In this document: piece by piece, positions 45,276 to 57,100 of the stretch
How positions within the stretch are numbered: position 1 is the first letter of the stretch
How the letters are laid out: every line of letters starts with the position of its first letter
DNA from: an uncultured Candidatus Saccharibacteria bacterium
GTDB lineage: Bacteria; Patescibacteriota; UBA1384; DTJR01
DNA length: 57,143 nucleotides
Direction of reading: 5' to 3'
NCBI GenBank assembly: GCA_964473025.1
Contig: CAYYMZ010000003.1
Span: 1 to 57,143, forward strand
Notes under the pieces: model-generated
Databases searched by the model: none
The model's input: only the letters and a program-made list of their open reading frames with translations
What the model was told of the DNA's origin: nothing
Position numbers and translations under genes: made by a program

Positions 45276-45349
45276 TGGCAGGCCCTAGAGGAGTCGAACC
45301 TCTGACTGCGGTTTTGGAGACCGCCATTATACCGTTTAACCAAGGGCCT
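45276..45349 (-). tRNA. tRNA-Trp (anticodon CCA)
   Basis: Hand-folded cloverleaf: acceptor AGGCCCT/AGGGCCT, anticodon arm GCGGT-CTCCAAA-ACCGC, T arm AGAGG-TTCGACT-CCTCT. CCA is encoded. Confidence 0.9.
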
Positions 45350-45372
45350 TCGCCCGCCTGAGGCGGGAGATT

Positions 45373-45540
45373 TTACTTACTCTCTTTGTGAACGGTGTGT
45401 TTTCGGCAAGTGTCACAAAACTTTTTCAACTCAACTTTCTTGACCGGCTGAATGCTTGATCGCTCGGTGACATAATTTCTGTTACCGCAAACGGAGCATT
45501 CTAAAATTAAATTCTTGATCCTATTTCCTTTTTTCGCCAT
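45373..45540 (-). CDS. rpmG: Ribosomal protein bL33
   Basis: My own translation is MAKKGNRIKNLILECSVCGNRNYVTERSSIQPVKKVELKKFCDTCRKHTVHKESK. It has CxxC...CxxC and is below the ORF-track cutoff. Confidence 0.85.
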   Translation of the reverse strand: MAKKGNRIKNLILECSVCGNRNYVTERSSIQPVKKVELKKFCDTCRKHTVHKESK

Positions 45541-45541
45541 A

Positions 45542-45781
45542 TTACCTCTTTCCGGTTAATGCAAATCTTAAAGCAATTGATATTGTGCCGGCAATGAGAC
45601 TTACAGCGCCGACAATAATTAAAAAATAACCAACAAACGTATGCGAACCCATACTTGCATCCGCACTCGCCAGAAAATCGGGGTTTGAAACTTCTGTAAA
45701 TGAAATTATTCCTATTACCAGAAGCGGTATGCTTAACATGTATGATGTAAAAAATCTTTTCATTTCGTCATTTCTCCTCAA
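45542..45781 (-). CDS. Small membrane protein (2 TM)
   Basis: 79-aa ORF with two hydrophobic helices. Confidence 0.55.
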   Translation of the reverse strand: MRRNDEMKRFFTSYMLSIPLLVIGIISFTEVSNPDFLASADASMGSHTFVGYFLIIVGAVSLIAGTISIALRFALTGKR

Positions 45782-45824
45782 TGAAGGCTTATTATTTTTA
45801 TTAGTTTACATCGAGCTTGCGAGA

Positions 45825-46130
45825 TGGAGCCCATGAGCGGATTCGGACCGCTGACCCCCCACCATTTCCTTACTGCAAAACGAACCACGTTCTGTTATTG
45901 CAGTGCGTCGGGTAGCGGGGCAGGCCTACTCCTTTTAATTGGAGCCGTTGACCGGATTCGGACCGGTGACCTATTCCTTACCATGGAATTGCTCTACCAG
46001 CTGAGCTACAACGGCAATTTTTGTTTTTTAAGTTGCTCCCTGCCCCGTATTAAACTGCTTCTGTCAATCGGAAGTGGATTCCGATGACAGAAAGGTTTTA
46101 CTACTGGGGTACCAGCTGAGCTACATGGGC
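45825..46130 (-). pseudogene. tRNA-Thr-like shell B: 5' acceptor and D-loop, plus 3' anticodon-stem remnant, T arm, acceptor and CCA, separated by ~240 nt that contain tRNA-Thr(GGU)
   Basis: The 5' part is GCCCATG-TA-GCTC-AGCTGGTA (46130-46110). The 3' part is ...GTAAGGAAATGGTGGGGGGTC-AGCGG-TCCGAAT-CCGCT-CATGGGC-T-CCA (about 45871-45825). The acceptor strands are perfectly complementary. There is no GAGC D-stem strand and no 5' anticodon-stem strand. Confidence 0.5.
45940..46015 (-). tRNA. tRNA-Thr (anticodon GGT)
   Basis: Acceptor GCCGTTG/CAACGGC, D arm GCTC/GAGC, anticodon arm ATTCC-ATGGTAA-GGAAT, T arm ACCGG-TCCGAAT-CCGGT. CCA is encoded. The T-loop has C at position 55. Confidence 0.9.
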
Positions 46131-46185
46131 CCTTCGCTTAAACTCAGGGTAAACAACTCGGTTTACACTGAACCCGTTAGGGTGA

Positions 46186-46272
46186 TGGTGCCGAGTGAAG
46201 GATTCGAACCTCCGAAGCCACGAGGGCGCGTGATTTACAGTCACGAGCAATTGACCACTCTGCCAACTCGGC
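46186..46272 (-). tRNA. tRNA-Tyr (anticodon GTA), long variable arm
   Basis: Acceptor GCCGAGT/ACTCGGC, anticodon arm CGTGA-CTGTAAA-TCACG, a 15-nt variable arm, T arm GGAGG-TTCGAAT-CCTTC. CCA is encoded. Confidence 0.9.
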
Positions 46273-46303
46273 AAGATTTCAAATTGTAAACTAACTACCT
46301 TTC

Positions 46304-46470
46304 TGGAGCCGATAGTCAGATTCGTGCCTCACGACCTACTGTTTATCCCGCACCCTTGGAGCCAACAGAGGGATTCGAACCCACGACCTACTGTTTACAA
46401 AACAGTTGCTCTACCACTGAGCTATGTTGGCGCTCAAGGGTGCGGGACTCTACAGATGAGCTATATCGGC
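46304..46470 (-). pseudogene. tRNA-Thr-like shell C: decayed tRNA-Thr(UGU) paralog split by a cassette that contains the intact tRNA-Thr(TGT)
   Basis: The 5' part is GCCGATA-TA-GCTC-ATCTGTA-GAGT (46470-46447). The 3' part is ATAA-ACAGT-AGGTC-GTGAG-GCACGAAT-CTGAC-TATCGGC-T-CCA (46346-46304). The acceptor strands are complementary and the T arm is degenerate. Confidence 0.5.
46357..46431 (-). tRNA. tRNA-Thr (anticodon TGT)
   Basis: Acceptor GCCAACA/TGTTGGC, D arm GCTC/GAGC, anticodon arm ACTGT-TTTGTAA-ACAGT, T arm GTGGG-TTCGAAT-CCCTC (one U-U mismatch). CCA is encoded. Flanked by a 10-bp inverted repeat at 46347-46356 / 46437-46446. Confidence 0.88.
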
Positions 46471-49360: not shown

Positions 49361-49436
49361 CGGGGTATAGCTTAGTTGGTAAAGCGCCGGGCTGGGGGTC
49401 CGGAGACCGCCAGTTCAAGTCTGGCTACCCCGACCA
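49361..49436 (+). tRNA. tRNA-Pro (anticodon GGG)
   Basis: Acceptor CGGGGTA/TACCCCG, D arm GCTT/AAGC, anticodon arm CCGGG-CTGGGGG-TCCGG, T arm GCCAG-TTCAAGT-CTGGC. CCA is encoded. Confidence 0.9.
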
Positions 49437-50972
49437 TTCAAAACTTTGGTCTTTTTTTATAATATTGAACGCTCCGCTTCGGCGACTCCCGCCTGTGGCG
49501 GGATAAACTCCAGTCGCCGTCTCTTCGCTAATTTCCTTCTTGTATTTTCGCAAAATGGCATAAGGGGTTTTTAACTTCCATTCAATTCTTTTGTTGAAAA
49601 GTTGATGGTTCGTTCCGATTTTTTGCACAAACGATTTCATTTCATGATAATCGTTTGAAAAAGCAAGTTTTTCAGCTTGGTGGGCAGAAAATATCCACTC
49701 CCTCAGCGGTTCGATCCAATTGTTTCCTTTTCGTCCAAAATCAGATTTCTGTTGGCAGAGGTCTTTTTTTGTTTTTATCAACTCTCCTTTCTTTTTGAGG
49801 TAGGTTTCTTTTTCAATATCGTCGTCAAGAAAAGTATTGATAAGTTTGTCCAGCTTTTCGTCGGTAAATTTGATTTTCTCCTCCAGGTTCTGGGCGAAGA
49901 TATGCGAGGACGACTTAACTTCTTTTTCCCAGATTTCCACTTGAGCCAACATCTTTTCTTTCCAGTCTTCGCATAAAGCGACTTTTGATAATTCATTTTT
50001 CAATTGTTCAACAAGTTCAATTTCGGAAAGATATTTTTGCGAGCAAGCCCCGAGGCGTTTGGTGCAACGATAATATCTATATTTTCCTTTGGCGTATTGT
50101 GCTGTAATCATCGCACCGCACTCTTTGCAGTGAAAAAGACCAACAAAGGGAAAATCGTGATTTTTCTTTGAATGTCTCGGCCTTGCTCGCAAGGCAAGAA
50201 CTTGTTGAACTTTATCAAAAGTCGTCTTGGAAACAATTGCCGGAAAACTGCCTTCAAAACATTCACCATTATGTTCAATGATTCCAAGATAAGCCTTATT
50301 GGTAAGCATACGGACAATAACCGCTTTGCAAAGCAGTTTTCCGGTTCTGCTCACCAAGCCCCAAAAACTCAGGCGTTCACTGATTGAAGTCAAAGTGTGG
50401 TTTCCGTTCGCAAACTCCTCAAACGCTTTTTTGATAATTCGAGTTTTAGTTTCGTCCGGCTCAATATTACGAGTTTTTGGATTATTTATATAGCCAAACG
50501 GAGCATGAGAACACCATTCGCCTCGCCTGAGTTTTTGTCTAATCCCGCGCTTTACATTCTCGGACAAATTGTCGGAATAGTATTTAGATTGGCCAAAAGC
50601 AACTTGAAGCATAAACAATCCTTGTGGAGTTGGTTCAAACCAGAATGTAGGAAAGCGCAAAGAAGCAATCTTTTCGGTATCAATGCAATAAATTATTTGA
50701 CCACCGTCAACTGAGTTTCGGGCGAGACGATCAGGATGCCAAGCCAAAATTCCAACAGGTTCTTTGACGGCATATACCTTTTCCATCATTTGATTAAATA
50801 TCTCTCGCCCGGGTTTCTTTGCGCTTTTCGACTCGATGAAACGATCAACAATTTCAATCTTTTCTCGTTTTGCAAATTCTAGGAGCTCCACAAGTTGGGC
50901 TTCAATAGACATGATTTGACGCTCTTCATCTTCAGTTGATTTGCGAGCGTAGAGAAAATATTTAATTCCCAT
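49425..50972 (-). CDS. Large serine recombinase
   Basis: N-terminal resolvase-type catalytic region (YARKSTEDEERQIMSIEAQ), a recombinase domain, a zinc ribbon (CKECGAMI...YYRCTKRLGAC) and a coiled-coil region. The start was chosen at MGIKY, 5 nt after GGAGGG. The 3' end overlaps the tRNA-Pro 3' end. Confidence 0.88.
   Translation of the reverse strand: MGIKYFLYARKSTEDEERQIMSIEAQLVELLEFAKREKIEIVDRFIESKSAKKPGREIFNQMMEKVYAVKEPVGILAWHPDRLARNSVDGGQIIYCIDTEKIASLRFPTFWFEPTPQGLFMLQVAFGQSKYYSDNLSENVKRGIRQKLRRGEWCSHAPFGYINNPKTRNIEPDETKTRIIKKAFEEFANGNHTLTSISERLSFWGLVSRTGKLLCKAVIVRMLTNKAYLGIIEHNGECFEGSFPAIVSKTTFDKVQQVLALRARPRHSKKNHDFPFVGLFHCKECGAMITAQYAKGKYRYYRCTKRLGACSQKYLSEIELVEQLKNELSKVALCEDWKEKMLAQVEIWEKEVKSSSHIFAQNLEEKIKFTDEKLDKLINTFLDDDIEKETYLKKKGELIKTKKDLCQQKSDFGRKGNNWIEPLREWIFSAHQAEKLAFSNDYHEMKSFVQKIGTNHQLFNKRIEWKLKTPYAILRKYKKEISEETATGVYPATGGSRRSGAFNIIKKDQSFEWSG
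49431..49611. repeat. IR1-L, 181-bp arm (partner 51183-51364, inverted)
   Basis: Compared by eye segment by segment, the copies are identical except T7 (left) versus A8 (right). The arm contains the last 6 nt of tRNA-Pro and the last ~60 codons of the recombinase. Confidence 0.9.
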
Positions 50973-51058
50973 TTTACCCTCCATTGTTTATGCTTCTATT
51001 ATATACCGAACAAAGATAGAACAAAAGACATTTTTGCTTTTGGCCTAAAGCGCGGGAT

Positions 51059-51080
51059 TCCTGCCTGCCGGCAGGCAGGA
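51059..51080. repeat. 22-bp perfect palindrome upstream of the recombinase promoter region
   Basis: TCCTGCCTGCC|GGCAGGCAGGA. Confidence 0.85.
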
Positions 51081-51182
51081 GAAACTTGTTTTTATCGCCT
51101 TCGGAGATGTACAAAAAATCGGAACAATAAACTCATTGCTCCCAATGCTTTTAATTTGGAGTTTATCCCGACTGCTGTCGGG

Positions 51183-51364
51183 GAACCATCAACTTTTCAA
51201 CAAAAGAATTGAATGGAAGTTAAAAACCCCTTATGCCATTTTGCGAAAATACAAGAAGGAAATTAGCGAAGAGACGGCGACTGGAGTTTATCCCGCCACA
51301 GGCGGGAGTCGCCGAAGCGGAGCGTTCAATATTATAAAAAAAAGACCAAAGTTTTGAATGGTCG
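51183..51364. repeat. IR1-R, 182-bp arm
   Basis: Reverse complement of 49431-49611. Similarity resumes further inward (51113-51125 versus 49612-49624) after a 57-nt insertion at 51126-51182. Confidence 0.9.
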
Positions 51365-51580
51365 AATTTACTAAACGAAGTTCGAACTTATTTCGAAAAC
51401 GAAAGCAAATAAATTGTAGCGTATTTGCTCCTTGATTTCCAGAGTATATGCTAAATACTAATGTCTGCGCTCGCCCCGAATTTTTCGGGGCTCGCTTGGC
51501 AAATTTTTTGTGCGGCCGTGGAGGGGTGTGGGGAGGAAACGGCCGCGCTGGTTTGGAAAATAATTATGGGGAGGAAGAAA
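51361..51580. repeat. IR2-L, 220-bp arm (partner 53823-54042, inverted)
   Basis: Identical by eye. Contains the palindrome AAGTTCGAACTT, the hairpins GCCCCGAA-TTT-TTCGGGGC and GCGGCCG...CGGCCGC, and a G-run loop. Confidence 0.9.
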
Positions 51581-51646
51581 CTTTCTTGGAAAAGATTGTT
51601 GTGCTAATATAAATTTGTTATTGAGTAATTAATCAAGAGCTAAATT

Positions 51647-52759
51647 ATGGAACCGACAGAAGAAGATAAACTAAAGGATGTCTCGGATAAAGACAGAGAG
51701 ATGATGGAAGTGCCGGAGTCGGCTCATTCTGATAATTTAGGCGCATTTGAGACCGTTGAATTACCCGATATCCCCGAAGAAGTTCAAAAGGTTATCACAG
51801 CTAAAAGAGAAGAGTTAATGAGCCAAAACCCTTGGCTTATGAGGTTTATGAGCTTGGATGAATTCAGAGAGATGATGTCAGCTGGAAAACTTGTGCGAAA
51901 AAGTGAAGCCATTCTTCTGGACACTCCAGGCGATTTATTTTTTCACGTCAGGAGGGGCGGGTACAACAGGGAGCATTACCCTCATAAACATGGGAGTATT
52001 CCCAAGGGCTTGATATGGTCCGATTTATCAGCCCATTTTACGGACATGAGAGATTATACCCCCTATGCATCGGAAGCGCAGGTAAATCACCTGACAAGAT
52101 ATAAAAAAATATATGACAGCTTACCAAAAGAAACTGAAGAAAGACGGGGAAAGGCTAGAAGTATTTTTATTCAAGAACTTAAGAAGCATATTTTAGAGCG
52201 TGGAATGAACATAGACGCACATGAAAACGAAGGGCTTAATGAAGATTACCTCGTGACTGATGAACAGATCGCAGAAGCGAAGGAACAACATTTCAAACAT
52301 GCCAGCGCAGAAGACAGAGAAAAGCTACTTTCTATTTTGGAAAAAAGCGATAGTGATATTTCCGATGACGAAATCCGGCTGATGCTAACCTATGCGCGAC
52401 CTAGTTACACATGGGATCAGATGCATTCTTACGAATTGATAGCGCTGTTTTCAAGTAAAACACCTTGTGAAAAACATGGTTGGAGTAATATGGGAGGAGA
52501 TAGACAATGGCGGGATTTACCCGAGGGAACTCCTGCCCGCGAGCTTATTGGCGTCATTCTAATGATTAGTAACAAGATTTATCTGCAAGAAGTTGAGAAA
52601 GCTATGCTTTCAGAAAGCGAACAGGACCCTGGAGTCGCCTACCCGATAATCGGACTTGACGGTAAAGAAGTTTTTCCAGAACAAGGAATTGATATCACTC
52701 CCGATCTCCATCTCAGCGAGAGTGTAATTCGATACAAACAAACCGGGAAATTTGCTTAG
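51647..52759 (+). CDS. Hypothetical acidic protein A (370 aa), island cargo
   Basis: Long ORF with no recognised domain and no signal peptide. The N-terminus MEPTEEDKLKDVSDKDREMMEVPES is shared with the next ORF. Confidence 0.7.
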   Translation: MEPTEEDKLKDVSDKDREMMEVPESAHSDNLGAFETVELPDIPEEVQKVITAKREELMSQNPWLMRFMSLDEFREMMSAGKLVRKSEAILLDTPGDLFFHVRRGGYNREHYPHKHGSIPKGLIWSDLSAHFTDMRDYTPYASEAQVNHLTRYKKIYDSLPKETEERRGKARSIFIQELKKHILERGMNIDAHENEGLNEDYLVTDEQIAEAKEQHFKHASAEDREKLLSILEKSDSDISDDEIRLMLTYARPSYTWDQMHSYELIALFSSKTPCEKHGWSNMGGDRQWRDLPEGTPARELIGVILMISNKIYLQEVEKAMLSESEQDPGVAYPIIGLDGKEVFPEQGIDITPDLHLSESVIRYKQTGKFA

Positions 52760-52808
52760 ACAAAATAACTACGATAATAAGGATTTAAGTTTATCAAGGA
52801 TTAAATAT

Positions 52809-53693
52809 ATGGAACCAACCGAGGAAAGCCAATACAGCGGTGCTTCAAGGAAAGATCAGGATATGATGCAGGTGCCAAGCGGTCCTGTTCTTGATGAACC
52901 AGAAGCTCCCATTTTTGACGAACCAACACGTGCACAAATGAAAAAAACCTTAAATAGATGGATGAAATCGAACGATGAAGATACTGAAGAACGACCAATT
53001 GCAAAAAAGGAGTATGTTGATCAAGTTGAGACCATTTATAATGGTTTCTTGCAAAAACCCGGGGTAGAGATTCCACCTCGAAACTTTCTCGCAAATGCAA
53101 AGAATTTGTATTTGCTCAATCAATATCTGGCAGAAACTAGGACATCTGATGATGGACTTATTATTGATTATGATTTGGGCGCTCGAATATATGCGGACAT
53201 TGCTTTTGTAGATAAGGATATATCAGATGAAGAAACTGAATATTGGAGAGATTACCTACTCGATTCCATGCCCTATTACCAGAATCCTGAATTTATGAGT
53301 GAAGATCCCCAAAAAATTTTCCTTGAAGGATACCCGCGTCGAGAAAACCTAGTGAGGGCCGTAACCGCGGCAATGGCGAGATTGGCCGAATATCGACATG
53401 TTGGTAGGAATGTTTACTCTATAGACCATCCAGCCTGCGCAAACAATCGGTTGTATGTGGCTGCAATAAAGAAAGAGTTCGGTGTTGACGATATCGATTA
53501 TCGCCATCTTAGTGATTCTGTAGATAACCCAAGCTTTACCATGCAGCGAAAATTATGGAAGATTCTAGAGCTTTCCGGATTAAGCGATGCTGAAGCATTA
53601 CAGGCTTTTAAAGAAAGTGAAAATCGGATAAGAAAGGATCTTGAAGAGGATCGAAAATCCCAGTTTGAGGAAGGTGGCAATATTGAAAATTAG
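52809..53693 (+). CDS. Hypothetical acidic protein B (294 aa), island cargo
   Basis: The start was set at ATG 52809 (MEPTEESQYSGASRKDQDMMQVPSG), by analogy with ORF A and a similar upstream context. No domain was recognised. Confidence 0.7.
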   Translation: MEPTEESQYSGASRKDQDMMQVPSGPVLDEPEAPIFDEPTRAQMKKTLNRWMKSNDEDTEERPIAKKEYVDQVETIYNGFLQKPGVEIPPRNFLANAKNLYLLNQYLAETRTSDDGLIIDYDLGARIYADIAFVDKDISDEETEYWRDYLLDSMPYYQNPEFMSEDPQKIFLEGYPRRENLVRAVTAAMARLAEYRHVGRNVYSIDHPACANNRLYVAAIKKEFGVDDIDYRHLSDSVDNPSFTMQRKLWKILELSGLSDAEALQAFKESENRIRKDLEEDRKSQFEEGGNIEN

Positions 53694-53822
53694 AAATAAG
53701 ACAGAAATTTCAATGACGACATTTGACACTAAAAATATCAGGGTCTTTTAATTAATGTTTGACCTTAGACTACATAATGAATTCACAATGGAGATTTGGG
53801 CGAAGTTACATTAAAAATCGAT

Positions 53823-54042
53823 TTTCTTCCTCCCCATAATTATTTTCCAAACCAGCGCGGCCGTTTCCTCCCCACACCCCTCCACGGCCGCACAAAAAAT
53901 TTGCCAAGCGAGCCCCGAAAAATTCGGGGCGAGCGCAGACATTAGTATTTAGCATATACTCTGGAAATCAAGGAGCAAATACGCTACAATTTATTTGCTT
54001 TCGTTTTCGAAATAAGTTCGAACTTCGTTTAGTAAATTCGAC
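53823..54042. repeat. IR2-R, 220-bp arm
   Basis: Reverse complement of 51361-51580. Ends in ...AAATTCGAC, followed by CA ACACAAAG. Confidence 0.9.
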
Positions 54043-54079
54043 CAACACAAAGACGATGTAATTAAATCCAAAAACAAAA

Positions 54080-54097
54080 ACGGCCCTCTGTGGCCGT
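54080..54097 (-). terminator. Terminator of the surface-protein gene
   Basis: ACGGCC-CTCTGT-GGCCGT, followed on the minus strand by TTTTTGTTTTTGG. Confidence 0.7.
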
Positions 54098-54129: not shown

Positions 54130-57100
54130 TTATCCCTTTTTAAGTTCTAGTTTGATTTTGCTCAAATCCCCAAGTCCAGTGATTCTGATTTTATCCGACC
54201 GGCTAGATTTATATCCTAAGCGCGTGGCGTCAAAGTAATAGGTTCCTGGTTGAATATTAACCATGAACTTTCCGTCATCACTTGAAATGACGGTGGCCTT
54301 GACGTGTCCCGCTGAGTCTAGTGCGCGGACAATGGCCAACCCCAGAGGGCTACCAGAACTGTCTTTAACCGTTCCATAGGTTCTTGGTTTAACAAGGAGA
54401 CGTATTTCGACCACCCAGAGGGCAATGTAAATCGCCAAAAAGACAAAATTAAGAGTGTTGGGTTTGATAAAGACAAGATAAACGGTCAACGATGTGCCGA
54501 TAATCATAATCGGTAAGCGCACGTAGCTTAAGAATCTCTGTACGGAGAGTGCCATCGAAGCAATGGCAAGGTCTGTAGTTGATAGCTTGGTTTGGTCTAA
54601 CGGGATCGATAAATTAACCGGTGCACGGGAAGTTCCCTTTATTTGATCCGTTTTGATCTCAATTTCTTTACCATGATAAACATTCTTATATTGTTCGTCG
54701 GACGCTCCCGGCATAATATTGGACGGGAAAATATATCCCTTTTTCGCCGCTACAATCTTATATTTTCCGGCCGAAACAAGAAAACCAAATGTACCGCTTT
54801 CAGAGCTAAATTGGGTTTCGCGCACCCTTCCGTCGGAGCTTAAGATCTGTATTCTTACGTGCGAAATCGGCCGTTTGGTAACCGAGTCATATACTACTCC
54901 CCACTTTGATCTTTTTACTCGCGCGCCAAGAAACGCCGCCGGGTAACGGAAAAATTCGGCAATTCTTGTTATATAGGTTGCCACCGAAACAACAGCGGGA
55001 AAAGAAGAAGAAATCGCTATTGCAGCCAAAGTTGCGGCAGCAACTGCAGCTGTTATAGGCGCGGCCGCGCGCGATTCGGCCGCTTCGCGCGCTGCTAAAA
55101 CCGCGTTATCAATAACTGTTGCGATAGCTGAGCCAATTCCGCTTCCACCCTTCATTTCAACCTGGGCAGAGGATCTAAGTAGACCGTTGCAAGCAGAGAA
55201 AGCCAATCCTTCGCCGAACGACCCAGCGGTATTACCACCTACGATCCTGATTTGCAGCGAATCGTTGTTTTCGCTCTGCAGTCCGCCAATACCCGGATCT
55301 ACTTTCCAGAATGAACCGTTATAATCAGGGGTAATTTTGAAATTAGCTACTGAATTACGGGCAATAGAATTACCGTTTGCATCCTTGAAAATTATCCCAA
55401 GAGTTTGTATCTGGCCAGGATTGACAGAAACTTCGGCCGGGTCAATCACAACCCCGGTAATATTTTCAAGGTTGCAAGCAGAAACTGGGGTCGGCGTTGG
55501 ACTATCGGTTTTAGGCACAATCGGAGTCGGGCTGTCGGGCACAATCGGTGTTGAACTGTCGTCTGGTACTGTCGGCGTTGGCGTATCACAATTGTCACTG
55601 GATGAAATATTCCAACTCTGATTTGAGCCCGAATCAGTTGAATTTGTGGCACAAAATGCTACTCCCGAATTTGTCGATGAAGAAACGTCCAGGTAATCGG
55701 CTTTTGAGACAGAGCTTGGATTGAAAATCCAATTTGAGCCACCGGTCGATCTTAGATTAATTAGGTTGCCTGCAGAACCGGCAATATTAATTTTATTAAA
55801 ATTGTAAGTCGAGCCGGAATTAAATTTCAGGGTTGATGGTGCAGAAGTGTCGGTAAATGTCCCGTTTGCTGTCGTGTTTCCCAGGAAGGTGTATGTCTTG
55901 TTGGGGTGGACTAGGATTAAATTATAATATGTCGCTGCTGTCACGTTAGTAGCGCTGGAACCGGTATATTTTATAGTTGATGTGGATGCTCTAAGCTTCC
56001 CCCCATTAACCAATGACAATGGAGTTCCCGATCCAGCAAGAGTAACTGTTCTGTTAGAAGCATCAAAGGTCGACTTGCCTTGATCAACTATTATTTGAGA
56101 ATTAACAGTAAAATCACCAGCTGCGGTAAAGGTCTTGGCAGCCCCGCCGCCATCATTCATTTTTAAATTATAATAAGTCGTTGGAGCAATATTCACCGAT
56201 GTTCCGCCCCAATAAAAGACAGTGGAAGTTGCTGCTTCAAAGGTGCCATTGATTACAAATGACGTACCCGATCCGTTGATAACAATTAATTTATTTGAAC
56301 CGTTTAAGGTTCCTGCATTAACAGTCAATTTATTAATTGCCCAAATCGCATTTCCCACCGTGAAAGTAGTCCCAGTATGATCGATAATGAGATTGTAATA
56401 ATGCGCCGAAGTAATATCTACATTGACCGAGCTCGTATATTTAACCGTTGAAGTTGAAGGTTCAAAATAGCTTACGCCCATAGTTGTCATACTCCCACCC
56501 AGGGTAATCGTTTTATTCGAAGCATTAAATATGGCACCAGTCTTTTCAACAAGGGAAAAAAGCTTGGAGATAGTCATATCCCCTGCCGCTGTAAAGGTAG
56601 TGCCTGAATGATCCATAGAAAGATTATAATAGGTTGTGCCTGTAATATTCGTGGCACTAGAACCAGTATATTTAATGGTAGAAGTTGCGGGCGTGAAAGT
56701 ACCGTTGATCACAAAAGGTGTAGTTGAGCCAGATAGGGTAACTGTTTTGCCCAAACCATTATAAATCGAACCTGATTCAATCGTAAAGGTAGCGGCGACC
56801 GAAAAATTAAGAAATGGGGTAAAGGTTGTACCGGACCGGTTTAGGGCCAAATTATAAAACCCGATTGCCGCGATGTCTGTTGCACTGGAACCTTGATATA
56901 TAACCGTTGAGGTTCCCGTGTCCAAGGAGCCGGTTGTGCCGACCTTCAATGGCCTTGAGCTACCCTGCCCTGAACCAGTTAACCTTAGTGTTGTATCATT
57001 CAAAACACCATATGCCCCGTCTAAAATAAATAGTTTCGGAACAGTAGACGTTATTGCTTCGGATGATGAGGGTCTCCAGGAATTGCCCGTCTTCACTATT

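What the first reader, a model, noticed from the sequence alone, without database searches (positions are those of the whole stretch)
49431..54044. tRNA-Pro island with two abutting long perfect inverted-repeat pairs and an internal inverted attP-like junction
What the sequence shows:
- tRNA-Pro(GGG) ends ...CCCCGACCA.
- Starting at its last 6 nt (CGACCA, 49431), a 181-bp segment is repeated in inverted orientation at 51183-51364. The copies are identical except for one homopolymer nucleotide. This pair brackets the body of a large serine recombinase gene.
- Directly abutting it, and sharing TGGTCG at 51359-51364, an unrelated 220-bp segment (51361-51580) is repeated inverted at 53823-54042. 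These copies are identical by eye and bracket two ORFs.
- The right end reads AAATTCGACCA|ACACAAAG, so it carries the same CGACCA hexamer.

Call the IR1 arm P' and the IR2 arm P. The three junctions then read:
- Left junction: tRNA-CGACCA-P'.
- Right junction: P-CGACCA-flank.
- Central junction: exactly the reverse complement of P-CGACCA-P'.

The locus therefore looks like an integrated element (attL and attR at a tRNA 3' end, as is usual for serine or tyrosine integrases). In addition it carries a complete inverted attP-like module with ~180 + 220-bp arms. That module splits the element into two single-copy arcs (1571 bp and 2242 bp), each flanked by long perfect inverted repeats.

I know of no described large-serine-recombinase element with this geometry. 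Possible explanations (inference):
- A flip-flop element, analogous to plastid inverted-repeat isomerisation.
- An element able to integrate through either of two inverted att modules.
- Two independently invertible segments.

The likely ORF A promoter (TTGGAA, 16 nt, TATAAA at about 51586-51613) lies inside the unique arc. A simple promoter-flip switch is therefore unlikely.
Basis: partly seen in the sequence, partly recalled or inferred. Interest (0 to 1): 0.85.

Follow-up and report, generated by a model that had tools for sequence, protein, structure and literature searches.

The report
Serine-recombinase cassette with inverted spare attP
A 4.6-kb mobile gene cassette sits at the end of a tRNA-Pro gene; its recombinase gene runs across its own recombination site, and a mirror-image spare copy of that site and gene end is kept inside the element, a layout shared by most of the 80 related loci examined and, as far as my searches show, not described before.

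Summary

It is not an assembly artefact:
- Eight-plus independent assemblies carry the same junctions.
- The two IR1 copies carry a stable T7/A8 marker.
- 67 of 80 related loci, including contigs of 216 kb to 6.2 Mb, show the same layout, some with diverged arms.

The "two IR pairs" are one inverted duplication of a roughly 400-bp attP module, split by integration.

New findings:
- The recombinase ORF crosses the crossover. Only the attP form encodes a conserved tail (..WS-x-LLNEVRTFFE..). At the tRNA junction the tail is replaced by antisense-tRNA codons.
- The P arm carries GTTCG exactly 5 nt farther from the crossover than the tRNA T-arm GTTCRA, in 32 of 35 loci. This is the attP/attB offset known for serine integrases.
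- Cargo varies (restriction-modification systems, transporters and others). No replication or transfer genes were seen.
- A sister species has the site unoccupied.

Best guess (inferred): integration truncates the recombinase, and homologous flipping of the gene body onto the spare module restores it. Actual inversion remains unproven.

The parts
49361..49436 (+). tRNA-Pro(GGG), intact. This is the attB left half-site (B). The T-arm GTTCAA lies 20 nt before the discriminator.
   Evidence: ARAGORN; Rfam tRNA, 67 bits; sequence.
49431..49436 (+). Core O (CGACCA) of attL, covering tRNA positions 71-76. Across the family the crossover must lie within positions 71-73.
   Evidence: Junction comparison. 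The shared part of the cores CGA, CCAC and CCCGA in other loci narrows it.
49431..49611 (+). IR1 proximal arm (O + P'). On the - strand it encodes the last ~60 codons of the recombinase. It carries the T7 marker at 49452-49458.
49425..50972 (-). Large serine recombinase gene, 515 aa from the ATG preceded by GGAGGG (the ORF is open from 50984). Its last codons, TGG TCG GGG TAG (W-S-G-stop), are supplied by the core and antisense tRNA.
   Evidence: Pfam Resolvase/Recombinase/Zn_ribbon_recom; PHROG integrase, 3.7e-71; R10 and S12 invariant in alignment A1.
49612..51182 (.). Single-copy arc X: the recombinase body plus its upstream region. It includes a 24-nt GC-rich palindrome at 51058-51081.
51183..51364 (+). 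IR1 distal arm, rc(P')+rc(O): an orphan copy of the recombinase 3' module, reading on the + strand. A8 at 51336-51343 breaks the frame (..KKRPKF*). With A7 it would run on across the core.
51359..51364 (+). Central core TGGTCG, the reverse complement of O, at the middle of the inverted attP.
51359..51580 (+). IR2 left arm, rc(O)+rc(P).
- 51365-51412 encodes the conserved tail N-L-L-N-E-V-R-T-Y-F-E-N-E-S-K-stop in the recombinase frame.
- GC-rich hairpins follow at about 51466-51497 and 51510-51549; the first is followed by a T-rich tract.
51647..52759 (+). Cargo ORF A (370 aa), function unknown.
   Evidence: No hit in Pfam, PADLOC, NCBIfam or PHROGs. An identical protein is present in 8 other assemblies.
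52752..53693 (+). Cargo ORF B (313 aa from TTG). Other gene callers give 294 aa, which corresponds to the ATG at 52809. It shares the N-terminal motif MEPTEE..KD.EMM.VP with ORF A.
53823..54044 (+). IR2 right arm (P+O), the P half of attR. It contains GTTCGA 5 nt farther from the crossover than the tRNA T-arm motif.
54039..54044 (+). Core O (CGACCA) of attR. It is followed by the non-conserved host flank B' (ACACAAAG..).
   Evidence: Synteny with the sister species resumes at 54074.

Best explanation
**Shown**
- Positions 49431-54044 are an integrated, non-replicative cassette element mobilised by a large serine recombinase. It targets the extreme 3' end of tRNA genes, with the crossover in tRNA positions 71-73.
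- Its attP lies inside the 3' end of the recombinase gene.
  - The P' arm encodes the last ~55 residues.
  - The ORF crosses the core, and a conserved 12-18-residue tail (..W-S-x-[LI]-L-[ND]-x-[AV]-R-T-[FY]-F-E..) plus hairpins lie in the P arm.
- The element carries a second, inverted copy of this whole module (P-O-P', about 400 bp here) on the other side of the recombinase body. Variable cargo sits between that copy and attR.
- Integration through the copy attached to the gene body produces the 'two abutting IR pairs'. It also replaces the conserved tail with antisense-tRNA codons (here W-S-G-stop).

**Inferred**
- The tRNA-fused enzyme is a disabled or altered 'locked' form.
- The internal inverted module is a spare 3' end. 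Homologous recombination within IR1 flips the gene body onto it and restores the full-length enzyme, and with it mobility.
- The same recombination or gene conversion keeps the arms identical.
- The design would work as a regulator-free, low-frequency on/off switch for a minimal element that has no repressor or directionality factor.
- In this window the spare copy has a +1 frameshift (A8). This particular element is probably stuck unless slippage corrects the frame.
For: **Anatomy**
-.

**The structure is real**
- Independent assemblies are 100% identical and contain all junctions.
- The T7/A8 marker sits consistently on the tRNA side and the central side respectively.
- 67 of 80 GTDB loci have IR1, and 18 have both IR pairs abutting with 3-13-nt cores.
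- These include contigs of 216 kb, 640 kb and 6.2 Mb (L061, L062, L090).
- Some loci have diverged arms of 80-94% identity, which no assembler would create.

**The gene spans attP**
- In about 45 loci the orphan copy reads through the core into a conserved tail, while the tRNA-side copy reads into antisense tRNA.
- 12 of 58 database homologues carry the conserved tail. P0015 and P0017 have near-identical bodies with the two different tails.

**Site identity (attP versus attB)**
- GTTCG in P is 5 nt farther out than the T-arm GTTCRA in 32 of 35 loci.
- This matches the LI integrase rule (PMC3783163) and the phiC31 zinc-ribbon-domain contacts at bp 17-27.

**Mobility**
- A sister species has an unoccupied site.
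- Cargo is variable.
- About 12 different tRNA isotypes are targeted.

**The spare module is maintained**
- The inner boundary of IR1 is always at the conserved GTN(R/H)(R/Q)L motif, whatever the module length.
- Six of six orphans with diverged arms keep an open frame plus tail: L023, L026, L038, L043, L055, L100.
- L100 has two different intact modules flanking one gene body.

**The locked state predominates**
- All 9 loci with a 92-94-nt IR1 have the tRNA-fused gene. These repeats are shorter than the 127-141 k values visible in some contig names.
- All 3 large contigs (L061, L062, L090) do too.
Against: - No direct evidence that inversion occurs. Contigs with X or Y flipped (L001, L004, L009, L011, L098, L099) come from assemblies whose k (127-141) is shorter than the repeats, so both paths fit the same k-mers.
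- In every resolved case only one orientation is seen.
- Whether the tail matters for activity is unknown. Recombinase ORFs remain intact where the arms have diverged (L038, L043). This suggests the tRNA-fused enzyme is itself under selection.
- pN/pS between arms (0.4-0.8) is not decisive.
- The AF2 model is of low confidence (mean pLDDT 59.5). It says only that the tail is helical.
- The model does not explain how the tRNA-fused or restored enzyme would carry out attL x attR excision without a directionality factor.
- No empty site or circle junction was found in this population.
Confidence: 0.45

Rival explanations
1. **2-micron-like site-specific flip-flop.** The recombinase itself recombines the inverted cores: attL x internal attP in the chromosome, attP x attP in the excised circle. 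This isomerises the two arcs as Flp does at FRT, for a purpose other than repairing its own gene.
For: - In the excised form, a circle would be split into two unique arcs by an inverted repeat that contains the recombinase target (geometry).
- L100 shows two intact inverted attP modules around the gene.
Against: - The T7 marker stays on the tRNA side in 6 of 6 sequences, including the two 'flipped' contigs. The A8 marker stays central in 2 of 2. A crossover at the core would swap them.
- Serine integrases are reported not to recombine att pairings other than attP x attB, or attL x attR with a directionality factor (abstract of PMC3783163, listed).
- No replication genes were found in any cargo examined. 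Amplification in the 2-micron manner therefore has no substrate.
Confidence: 0.12
2. **Dual-attP design for integration.** Two inverted attP sites let the circle integrate through either site, in either body orientation. They could also let one arc insert between two inverted tRNA genes by double recombination, a natural form of cassette exchange. On this view inversion in the chromosome is irrelevant.
For: - L065 and L045 have the recombinase arc flanked by two inverted tRNA-Pro copies, the product expected from double recombination or from internal attP x a second tRNA.
- Four loci have the tRNA on the 5' side of the gene: L040, L045, L067, L082.
- Engineered inverted-attP cassettes are used in this way (MiMIC papers listed).
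Against: - If both sites were used equally, about half of the integrated copies should have the orphan split. Resolved loci are 12 of 12 with the gene-attached copy split.
- The rival does not explain why the duplicated module extends 90-200 nt into the gene and 150-435 nt beyond the core, when att sites need only ~25 bp per half.
- It also does not explain why the arms stay identical.
Confidence: 0.15
3. **Functionless relic.** An ancestral inverted duplication of the gene end is dragged along and homogenised by gene conversion. The element works as an ordinary serine-recombinase island using only attL and attR.
For: - The spare copy in this window is frameshifted, and several orphans are broken: L027, L051, L072, L077, L083, L084, L088.
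- pN/pS between arms is not clearly below 1.
Against: - The duplication persists across relatives down to 56% recombinase identity, with the same inner boundary.
- The tail lies outside the expressed gene in the common integrated state, yet it is conserved at the protein level with varied codons. The attP-form gene must therefore be expressed at some stage.
- Orphans with diverged arms keep open frames in 6 of 6 cases.
Confidence: 0.15
4. **Assembly artefact.** The repeats are chimeric joins or collapsed population variants (integrated plus excised forms), not one molecule.
For: - Short-read assemblies cannot order arcs across repeats longer than k.
- Many related contigs end in or just past the repeats.
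Against: - The junction between the right end of X and the inner end of rc(P') cannot arise from mixing a simple integrated form with a circle.
- It is present at 100% identity in independent assemblies (L002).
- The two copies differ by a stable marker.
- Contigs of 216 kb to 6.2 Mb and loci with diverged arms show the same layout.
Confidence: 0.01
5. **RNA-level or insulating role.** The inverted modules act as bidirectional terminators that isolate recombinase and cargo from outside transcription. Alternatively, they make read-through transcripts fold into long double-stranded RNA that silences the recombinase.
For: - GC-rich hairpins with a T-rich tract lie in the P arm just after the tail stop codon.
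- The arms face inward at both element ends.
- A promoter-like TTCAAA-16-TATAAT sits in the central P' copy pointing at the recombinase.
Against: - The fold of the arm is no better than shuffled sequence (z = -1.4).
- There is no Rfam match.
- The promoter-like motif is not conserved in the family logo.
- The idea does not explain why the coding part and the core are duplicated as well.
Confidence: 0.08

Closest known systems
Large serine recombinase (serine integrase) integrative elements and prophages (phiC31, Bxb1, A118/LI, SPbeta)
   Same: - Resolvase-Recombinase-Zn-ribbon architecture.
- Short common core, and hybrid attL/attR after integration.
- The zinc-ribbon motif is shifted 5 bp between the attP-type and attB-type half-sites.
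   Different: - Only ~25% identity to any phage or plasmid recombinase, and almost absent from viral contigs.
- attP lies inside the recombinase ORF.
- A second, inverted attP module is kept inside the integrated element.
- No directionality-factor candidate was identified.
- The target is the tRNA T-arm and acceptor end, so many different tRNAs serve.
SCC elements (CcrAB/CcrC cassette chromosomes of staphylococci)
   Same: - Small non-replicative cassettes with variable cargo.
- Moved by large serine recombinases without a known directionality factor.
- Inserted at the 3' end of a conserved housekeeping gene.
- The best NCBIfam hits are CcrA and XisF.
   Different: - Scores are far below family cut-offs (81.6 bits against 700).
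- The target is a tRNA rather than rlmH.
- There is one recombinase gene that spans attP.
- The long internal inverted module has no SCC counterpart.
SSV1-type archaeal integrases (tyrosine recombinases whose gene contains attP and is split on integration; my own knowledge, and the review PMC8371274 listed)
   Same: - The recombination site lies inside the recombinase gene, so integration at a tRNA gene alters or disrupts that gene.
   Different: - The enzyme is a serine, not a tyrosine, recombinase.
- Only the C-terminal tail is exchanged.
- A spare intact 3' module is carried in inverted orientation.
- The hosts are bacteria (largely CPR/Patescibacteria, Omnitrophota).
Yeast 2-micron plasmid (Flp/FRT within 599-bp inverted repeats; my own knowledge)
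   Same: - The predicted free form is a circle split into two unique arcs by long identical inverted repeats.
- Those repeats contain the target of the element's own recombinase.
   Different: - The recombinase is a serine rather than a tyrosine enzyme.
- No replication or partition genes were found.
- The element lives integrated in a chromosome.
- The marker evidence argues against recombinase-mediated inversion.
Invertible-segment systems that swap gene 3' ends (Gin/Cin/Hin/Pin invertases, Rci shufflons; my own knowledge)
   Same: - Inversion between inverted repeats would change the C-terminus of a protein. L100 offers two alternative C-terminal modules.
   Different: - Here the constant gene body is the invertible piece.
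- The gene affected is the recombinase itself.
- The enzyme is a 515-aa large serine recombinase, not a ~190-aa invertase, and no enhancer is known.
- Inversion is inferred to be homologous, not site-specific.
Integration-dependent immunity of mycobacteriophage BPs (attP inside the repressor gene; my own knowledge)
   Same: - Integration changes the C-terminus of an element-encoded protein, and so switches its behaviour.
   Different: - That system uses a tyrosine integrase and the gene affected is the repressor.
- It has no inverted spare copy.

Membership tests
Large serine recombinase integrative element | Recombinase with an N-terminal resolvase catalytic domain, a recombinase domain and a zinc-ribbon domain | tested here: met
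   PF00239, PF07508 and PF13408 are all above their cut-offs. PHROG 95 integrase, 3.7e-71.
Large serine recombinase integrative element | Conserved catalytic Arg/Ser near the N-terminus | tested here: met
   Y8, R10 and S12 are invariant in 14 family members.
Large serine recombinase integrative element | Coiled-coil motif inserted in the zinc-ribbon domain | tested here: inconclusive
   AF2 predicts long paired helices at 337-382 and 388-411, with block pLDDT mostly 76-86. The model overall is poor (mean pLDDT 59.5).
Large serine recombinase integrative element | attL and attR are hybrids of attP and attB arms around a short identical core | tested here: met
   B-O-P', P-O-B' and P-O-P' are all present in the window and in 18 related loci with locus-specific cores.
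Large serine recombinase integrative element | The zinc-ribbon-domain motif lies 5 bp closer to the crossover in attB than in attP | tested here: met
   The offset is exactly 5 nt in 32 of 35 loci for the left half-sites, tRNA T-arm against P. The rule is from PMC3783163. The right half-sites (P', B') show no comparable motif.
Large serine recombinase integrative element | Unoccupied attB in related genomes | tested here: met
   Sister species L101/L102: synteny stops at the tRNA-Pro end and resumes 29 nt past attR, with no recombinase between. The spacer differs, so the comparison is not nucleotide-exact. No empty site was found in the same population.
Large serine recombinase integrative element | Recombination directionality factor for excision | not testable with these tools
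   Cargo is variable, with no shared small gene across loci. Directionality factors have no common signature.
Large serine recombinase integrative element | Demonstrated integration and excision activity | not testable with these tools
   Needs experiments or read-level data.
SCC / Ccr cassette chromosome | A Ccr-type recombinase reaching the NCBIfam equivalog cut-off | tested here: not met
   CcrA 81.6 bits against 700; CcrB 66.9 against 900; CcrC 41.1 against 900.
SCC / Ccr cassette chromosome | Integration at the 3' end of rlmH (orfX) | tested here: not met
   The target is the tRNA-Pro 3' end.
Small serine DNA invertase systems (Hin/Gin/Cin/Pin) | A ~190-aa invertase with a C-terminal HTH acting on short inverted crossover sites | tested here: not met
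   The protein is 515 aa with recombinase and zinc-ribbon domains. The JGI name 'DNA invertase Pin-like' and the weaker PHROG 'DNA invertase' hits, which cover parts of the protein only, do not fit this architecture.
2-micron-type plasmid | Autonomous replication origin and partition genes | tested here: not met
   Cargo in 18 loci consists of accessory genes only, with no shared gene.
2-micron-type plasmid | Recombinase-mediated inversion at sites inside the inverted repeats | tested here: inconclusive
   The marker distribution argues against core-mediated inversion. There are no read data.
SSV1-type gene-splitting integrase | attP inside the recombinase ORF | tested here: met
   The ORF continues across the core into a conserved tail in about 45 loci.
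SSV1-type gene-splitting integrase | Tyrosine recombinase | tested here: not met
   Serine recombinase domains.

The most novel reading that the evidence does not exclude
A self-locking, phase-variable integrase. The recombinase gene is truncated by its own integration reaction. It is re-armed only when its body flips, by host homologous recombination, onto a mirror-image spare 3' module that also holds a live attP. This would be a regulator-free mobility switch, and possibly a tail-dependent directionality control that replaces a separate directionality factor. It would operate in what appears to be a very large family of tRNA-targeting cassettes across CPR and other uncultivated phyla.
Probability: 0.3. 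Interest if true: 0.9.

Novelty: new variant of a known kind. Interest (0 to 1): 0.8.

Why it matters
- **Abundance.** The layout defines an apparently undescribed and very abundant class of minimal mobile cassettes.
  - There are at least 578 relatives among GTDB species representatives.
  - The 120 best database matches are all at least 65% identical.
  - The class occurs in lineages (CPR/Patescibacteria, Omnitrophota and others) where routes of gene exchange are poorly known.
  - It moves restriction-modification systems, transporters and metabolic genes.
- **Mechanism.** It is a natural experiment in how a serine integrase can be controlled without a separate directionality factor or repressor. 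The enzyme's own C-terminus is rewritten by integration, and a spare copy is kept in mirror image.
- **Target.** The enzyme reads the universally conserved tRNA T-arm and acceptor end, and uses about a dozen different tRNAs. That makes it a candidate broad-host 'landing-pad-free' integrase for genome engineering.
- **Practical point.** The repeats explain why contigs in these genomes so often break next to tRNA genes.

Tried and rejected
**Rejected**
- Assembly artefact. Rejected on independent assemblies, the marker, large contigs and diverged arms.
- Phage or plasmid origin. There were 0 and 2 partial hits in IMG/VR, and identity to any sequenced phage or plasmid recombinase is below 28%.
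- Other copies of the element or its arms elsewhere in the window: none.

**Searches that found nothing**
- Exact look-up of the recombinase (519 and 515 aa): not on record. Other assemblies cut the gene at the repeat.
- Empty attB in the same population. None among 7 contigs that carry the upstream protease gene. No exact match in JGI metagenome contigs.
- Non-coding RNA in the arms: only the tRNA matches Rfam.
- Function of ORF A and ORF B: no hit in Pfam, PADLOC, NCBIfam or PHROGs.
- Six literature searches found no description of the architecture.

**Inconclusive**
- Using contigs with flipped arcs as proof of inversion. Abandoned because k = 141 is shorter than the repeats, so both paths share all k-mers.
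- pN/pS between the two IR1 copies, as a test of selection on the orphan: 0.4-0.8, with short and partly misaligned blocks.
- AF2 of the full-length form with 12 sequences: mean pLDDT 59.5, tail helical, nothing more. No fold search was run on it.
- A mirror-image GTTCG motif in P': not found.

Full report
**1. Observation**

The repeat finder returns IR2 as arms 51359-51580 and 53823-54044, 222 nt at 100%. It returns IR1 as 49452-49611 / 51183-51342 (160 nt, 100%) plus 49431-49458 / 51337-51364 (28 nt, 100%). IR1 is therefore one 181/182-nt repeat interrupted by a single homopolymer indel. The unique arcs are 1571 and 2242 nt.

ARAGORN and Rfam place tRNA-Pro(GGG) at 49361-49436. The ORF 49425-50984 (-) has Resolvase, Recombinase and Zn_ribbon_recom domains. 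The other inverted matches in the region are 20-41 nt at 71-86%, so the two long repeats are far beyond chance.

**2. The structure is real**

ORF A and the protease gene upstream of the tRNA occur, with identical protein sequence, on contigs from independent ENA, JGI and Logan assemblies.
- These contigs match the window at 99.9-100% and together contain every junction.
- L002 is colinear with 49584-53932, across the central junction.
- The tRNA-side IR1 copy has T7 in the window and in five other contigs. The central copy has T8 (A8 on the + strand) in the window and in L002. The two copies are therefore physically distinct.
- Contigs also exist with the ORF A/B arc flipped relative to the right flank (L001, L004), and with the recombinase arc flipped relative to the tRNA (L009, L011).
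- I do not count these as evidence of inversion. At least the ENA contigs carry k141 names. Both repeats, and even the 153-nt stretch between the marker and the inner edge of IR1, are longer than 141 nt. Both orientations therefore give the same k-mer graph.

**3. The architecture is family-wide**

A scan of one genome per GTDB species found at least 578 relatives. The best 80 are 56-88% identical. They come from Saccharibacteria, Berkelbacteria, other Patescibacteria and Omnitrophota. Some come from bins labelled Gammaproteobacteria, Planctomycetia, Bacteroidales and Actinomycetota.

From the tables:
- By my count, about 61 of 80 loci have a tRNA 3' end abutting or overlapping the recombinase 3' end. 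Most are tRNA-Pro. Others are Gln, Ala, Trp, Arg, Phe, Val, Lys, Asp, Leu and His; a second element in L087 abuts tRNA-Ser.
- 67 of 80 have an inverted repeat of 55-282 nt (typically 92-200) bracketing the gene body, usually at 98-100% identity.
- Most of the rest have too little upstream sequence on the contig to tell.
- 18 loci long enough to show it have a second inverted repeat of 107-435 nt around 1.1-6 kb of cargo. In at least 14 of them it abuts the first and overlaps it by 3-13 nt.

In those 14 the three junctions again read tRNA-O-P', P-O-P' (inverted) and P-O-flank, with locus-specific cores.

The same layout occurs in contigs of 216 kb, 640 kb and 6.2 Mb (L061, L062, L090). Their names and sizes suggest long-read assemblies; that reading is my inference. 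It also occurs in loci whose arms have diverged to 80-94% (L019, L038, L042, L043). An assembler cannot invent diverged arms.

Many contigs end inside or about 50 nt past a repeat. Many database homologues sit on contigs of 1.9-2.4 kb, the size of one arc plus arms. The repeats evidently break short-read assemblies.

**4. One duplicated module, not two repeats**

For each locus I translated the distal (central) IR1 copy in the recombinase frame. In about 45 loci the frame continues across the core into the P arm and encodes a conserved tail.
- L019: ..WSNLLNEVRTFFEQKSSQ*
- L021: ..WSQLLNEVRTHFEQEFLP*
- L062: ..WLQILNEARTLFERDN*
- L095: ..CRELLNEVRTFFEREEGCSD*

The tRNA-side copy instead reads into antisense tRNA (WSG*, or WSGRQDSNLRP..*).

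The family logo of the central site is TTCAAAATAGGTTCGnGCTnCGTTCAGnA..t.CGACCA....aACtTt. Its left block reaches 44 nt from the discriminator. That is farther than the roughly 27 bp a serine integrase contacts in attP. In reverse complement it spells A-R-T-Y-F-E. Leu, Asn and Ala/Val codons vary between loci. The block is therefore at least partly conserved as protein.

The full-length recombinase gene thus spans attP.
- P' is its last ~30-60 codons.
- The P arm holds the tail, the stop codon and two GC-rich hairpins, the first followed by a T-rich tract.

The 'two abutting IR pairs' are a single inverted duplication of this module, with one copy split by integration. The inner boundary of IR1 always falls at the conserved GTN(R/H)(R/Q)L motif, whether the module is 92 or 200 nt long. 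That points to one ancestral duplication maintained ever since.

Among 58 database homologues that I read, 12 carry the conserved tail and the rest carry tRNA-derived tails. P0015 and P0017 have near-identical bodies with different tails.

In this window the central copy has A8 instead of A7. Its frame ends early (..KKRPKF*). With A7 it would read ..EWSNLLNEVRTYFENESK*.

**5. Identity of the sites**

The tRNA T-arm motif G53TTCRA58 and the GTTCG motif of the P arm differ in distance to the crossover by exactly 5 nt in 32 of 35 loci.

In LI integrase the zinc-ribbon-domain motif of attB is shifted 5 bp towards the centre relative to attP (PMC3783163). In phiC31 the same domain contacts bp 17-27 of attP. 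The P-arm motif falls at about bp 21-25.
- P is therefore an attP-type half-site that imitates the tRNA T-arm.
- The tRNA is the attB-type half-site.
- This explains how one family can use a dozen different tRNAs.

The part shared by the cores CGA (L059), CCAC (L087) and CCCGA (L078) confines the crossover to tRNA positions 71-73. The host flank B' is not conserved, and P' shows no mirror-image motif.

**6. Mobility, cargo and vehicle**

A sister species (protease 90% identical, about 83% nucleotide identity) is syntenic up to the end of tRNA-Pro and again from 29 nt beyond attR.
- Only about 310 nt lie between, and there is no recombinase (L101, L102).
- That spacer contains two fragments of tRNA 3' halves. 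The site therefore looks like an integration hot spot.

No empty site was seen in the window's own population.

Cargo differs from locus to locus. No shared gene and no replication or transfer function was seen. Examples:
- type III restriction-modification
- methyltransferase with an AAA ATPase
- Fic
- M64 peptidase
- P-type ATPase
- ALAD
- a sodium-solute symporter
- ArsP permease
- radical SAM

ORF A and ORF B of this window match nothing in four libraries.

The family is practically absent from IMG/VR. It is under 28% identical to any recombinase in sequenced phages or plasmids. Its best curated matches, CcrA and XisF, are far below their cut-offs.

In lifestyle it most resembles SCC-type cassettes. 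It is not a member of that family.

**7. A possible free form**

L100 has a recombinase 83% identical to this one.
- It has an intact tail.
- Upstream, in inverted orientation, lies a complete P-O-P' module of a different sequence type, 84-97% identical to the module of this window and with its own intact frame and tail.
- There is no tRNA on the 6.1-kb contig.

Two intact inverted attP modules around the gene body is what the excised form should look like. It also shows that modules can be exchanged between elements. The contig is not closed, so this is suggestive only.

**8. How it most likely works**

The anatomy in sections 1 to 6 is shown. The following is inference.

Integration through the gene-attached attP replaces the conserved tail.
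- This is the state in all 9 loci whose IR1 is only 92-94 nt (shorter than the 127-141 k values visible in some contig names) and in all 3 large contigs.
- If both attP copies of a free circle were used equally, half of the integrated copies should have the orphan split instead.
- The bias fits a kinetic trap. Elements that keep the full-length enzyme stay mobile. Elements that truncate it stay put.

The internal module would then be a spare 3' end. A homologous crossover within IR1 flips the gene body onto it and restores the full-length gene. The same recombination or gene conversion keeps the arms identical, as in other long inverted repeats.

Evidence that the spare is maintained for use:
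- It persists across the whole family with a fixed boundary.
- The tail is conserved at the protein level, although it lies outside the expressed gene in the common state.
- Frames and tails are intact in 6 of 6 orphans whose arms have diverged.

The T7/A8 marker stays in place even in the 'flipped' contigs. Any real inversion here would therefore be homologous and not catalysed at the core. This fits the reported inability of serine integrases to pair attL with attP (abstract of PMC3783163, listed).

Weak points:
- Inversion has not been observed.
- The role of the tail is unknown.
- Intact recombinase genes in loci with diverged arms suggest the tRNA-fused enzyme is itself under selection.
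- Excision without a directionality factor is unexplained.

I put 0.45 on the combined statement: about 0.9 on the anatomy and about 0.35 on the switch.

**9. Rivals**
- Recombinase-mediated flip-flop of the 2-micron type. The marker, the known site-pair selectivity and the absence of replication genes argue against it.
- A dual-attP design for integration in either orientation, or for cassette exchange between two inverted tRNA genes. L065 and L045, with the gene flanked by two inverted tRNA-Pro copies, fit this. The strong orientation bias and the length and identity of the arms do not.
- A functionless relic kept by gene conversion. The broken orphans, including this window's, speak for it. 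The conserved tail and fixed boundary speak against it.
- An insulating or RNA-level role. The fold is no better than shuffled sequence.
- Assembly artefact. Rejected.

**10. Novelty**

Six full-text searches found no description of a serine-recombinase element with an internal inverted attP or with a recombinase gene spanning attP. Database names are only 'recombinase family protein' or 'DNA invertase Pin-like'.

The parts have known analogues:
- attP inside the integrase gene in SSV1-type archaeal tyrosine integrases
- integration-dependent change of a protein C-terminus in mycobacteriophage BPs
- inverted repeats holding the recombinase site in the 2-micron plasmid
- engineered inverted-attP cassettes

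The combination, in a very large bacterial family that reads the tRNA T-arm, is a new variant of the serine-integrase island. Interest is 0.8.

Noticed in passing
window 51331-51358 (- strand) and 49437-49464 (+ strand): A promoter-like TTCAAA-16-TATAAT starts right at the core inside P' and points into the recombinase arc. Its spacer contains the homopolymer. The central copy (8 nt) has a 16-nt spacer and was reported by the scan. The tRNA-side copy (7 nt) has 15 nt and was not. The motif is not conserved in the family logo.
   Followed up: partly
window 51058-51081: A perfect GC-rich palindrome, TTCCTGCCTGCCGGCAGGCAGGAG, lies between the recombinase start and the orphan module. It could be an operator or a terminator; it is unexplained.
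   Followed up: no
window 51647-51715 and 52809-52877: ORF A and ORF B share an N-terminal motif (MEPTEE..KD.EMM.VP; BLASTP 13/23 identities) but are otherwise unrelated. Other gene callers give ORF B as 294 aa, which corresponds to the ATG at 52809. This may be a common leader or targeting peptide.
   Followed up: partly
L101 9260-9297 and 9399-9425 (sister species); L104 4619-4642: The unoccupied tRNA-Pro site of related species carries fragments of tRNA-Pro 3' halves (T-arm plus acceptor end). These look like scars of other integrative elements, so the locus appears to be an integration hot spot.
   Followed up: no
L087 4384-9586: Two family elements sit side by side at neighbouring tRNAs, tRNA-Ser and tRNA-Ala. 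Their recombinases are only 43% identical and each has its own inverted repeat.
   Followed up: no
L065 940-2937; L045 7642-9571: The recombinase arc is flanked by two inverted tRNA-Pro copies (80% and 98% identical arms that include tRNA sequence). This is what recombination of the internal attP with a second tRNA gene, or a double exchange between inverted tRNAs, would leave. It implies the element can rearrange chromosomes.
   Followed up: partly
L100 34-1073: A diversity-generating-retroelement pair (reverse transcriptase RVT_1 and bAvd accessory protein) lies next to the element that has two different intact attP modules.
   Followed up: no
window 45276-46431: A cluster of four tRNA genes (Trp, Thr, Tyr, Thr) lies on the - strand 3 kb upstream. 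It is conserved in the sister species, and none of the four is occupied by an element in this window.
   Followed up: no
window 57143 (end) / L001 1-205: Contig L001 extends 205 nt beyond the end of the window.
   Followed up: no
window 54130-57096 (-): The right-hand neighbour is a 988-aa protein with a C-terminal CarboxypepD_reg domain. Its terminator hairpin (54080-54097) lies 36 nt from attR.
   Followed up: no
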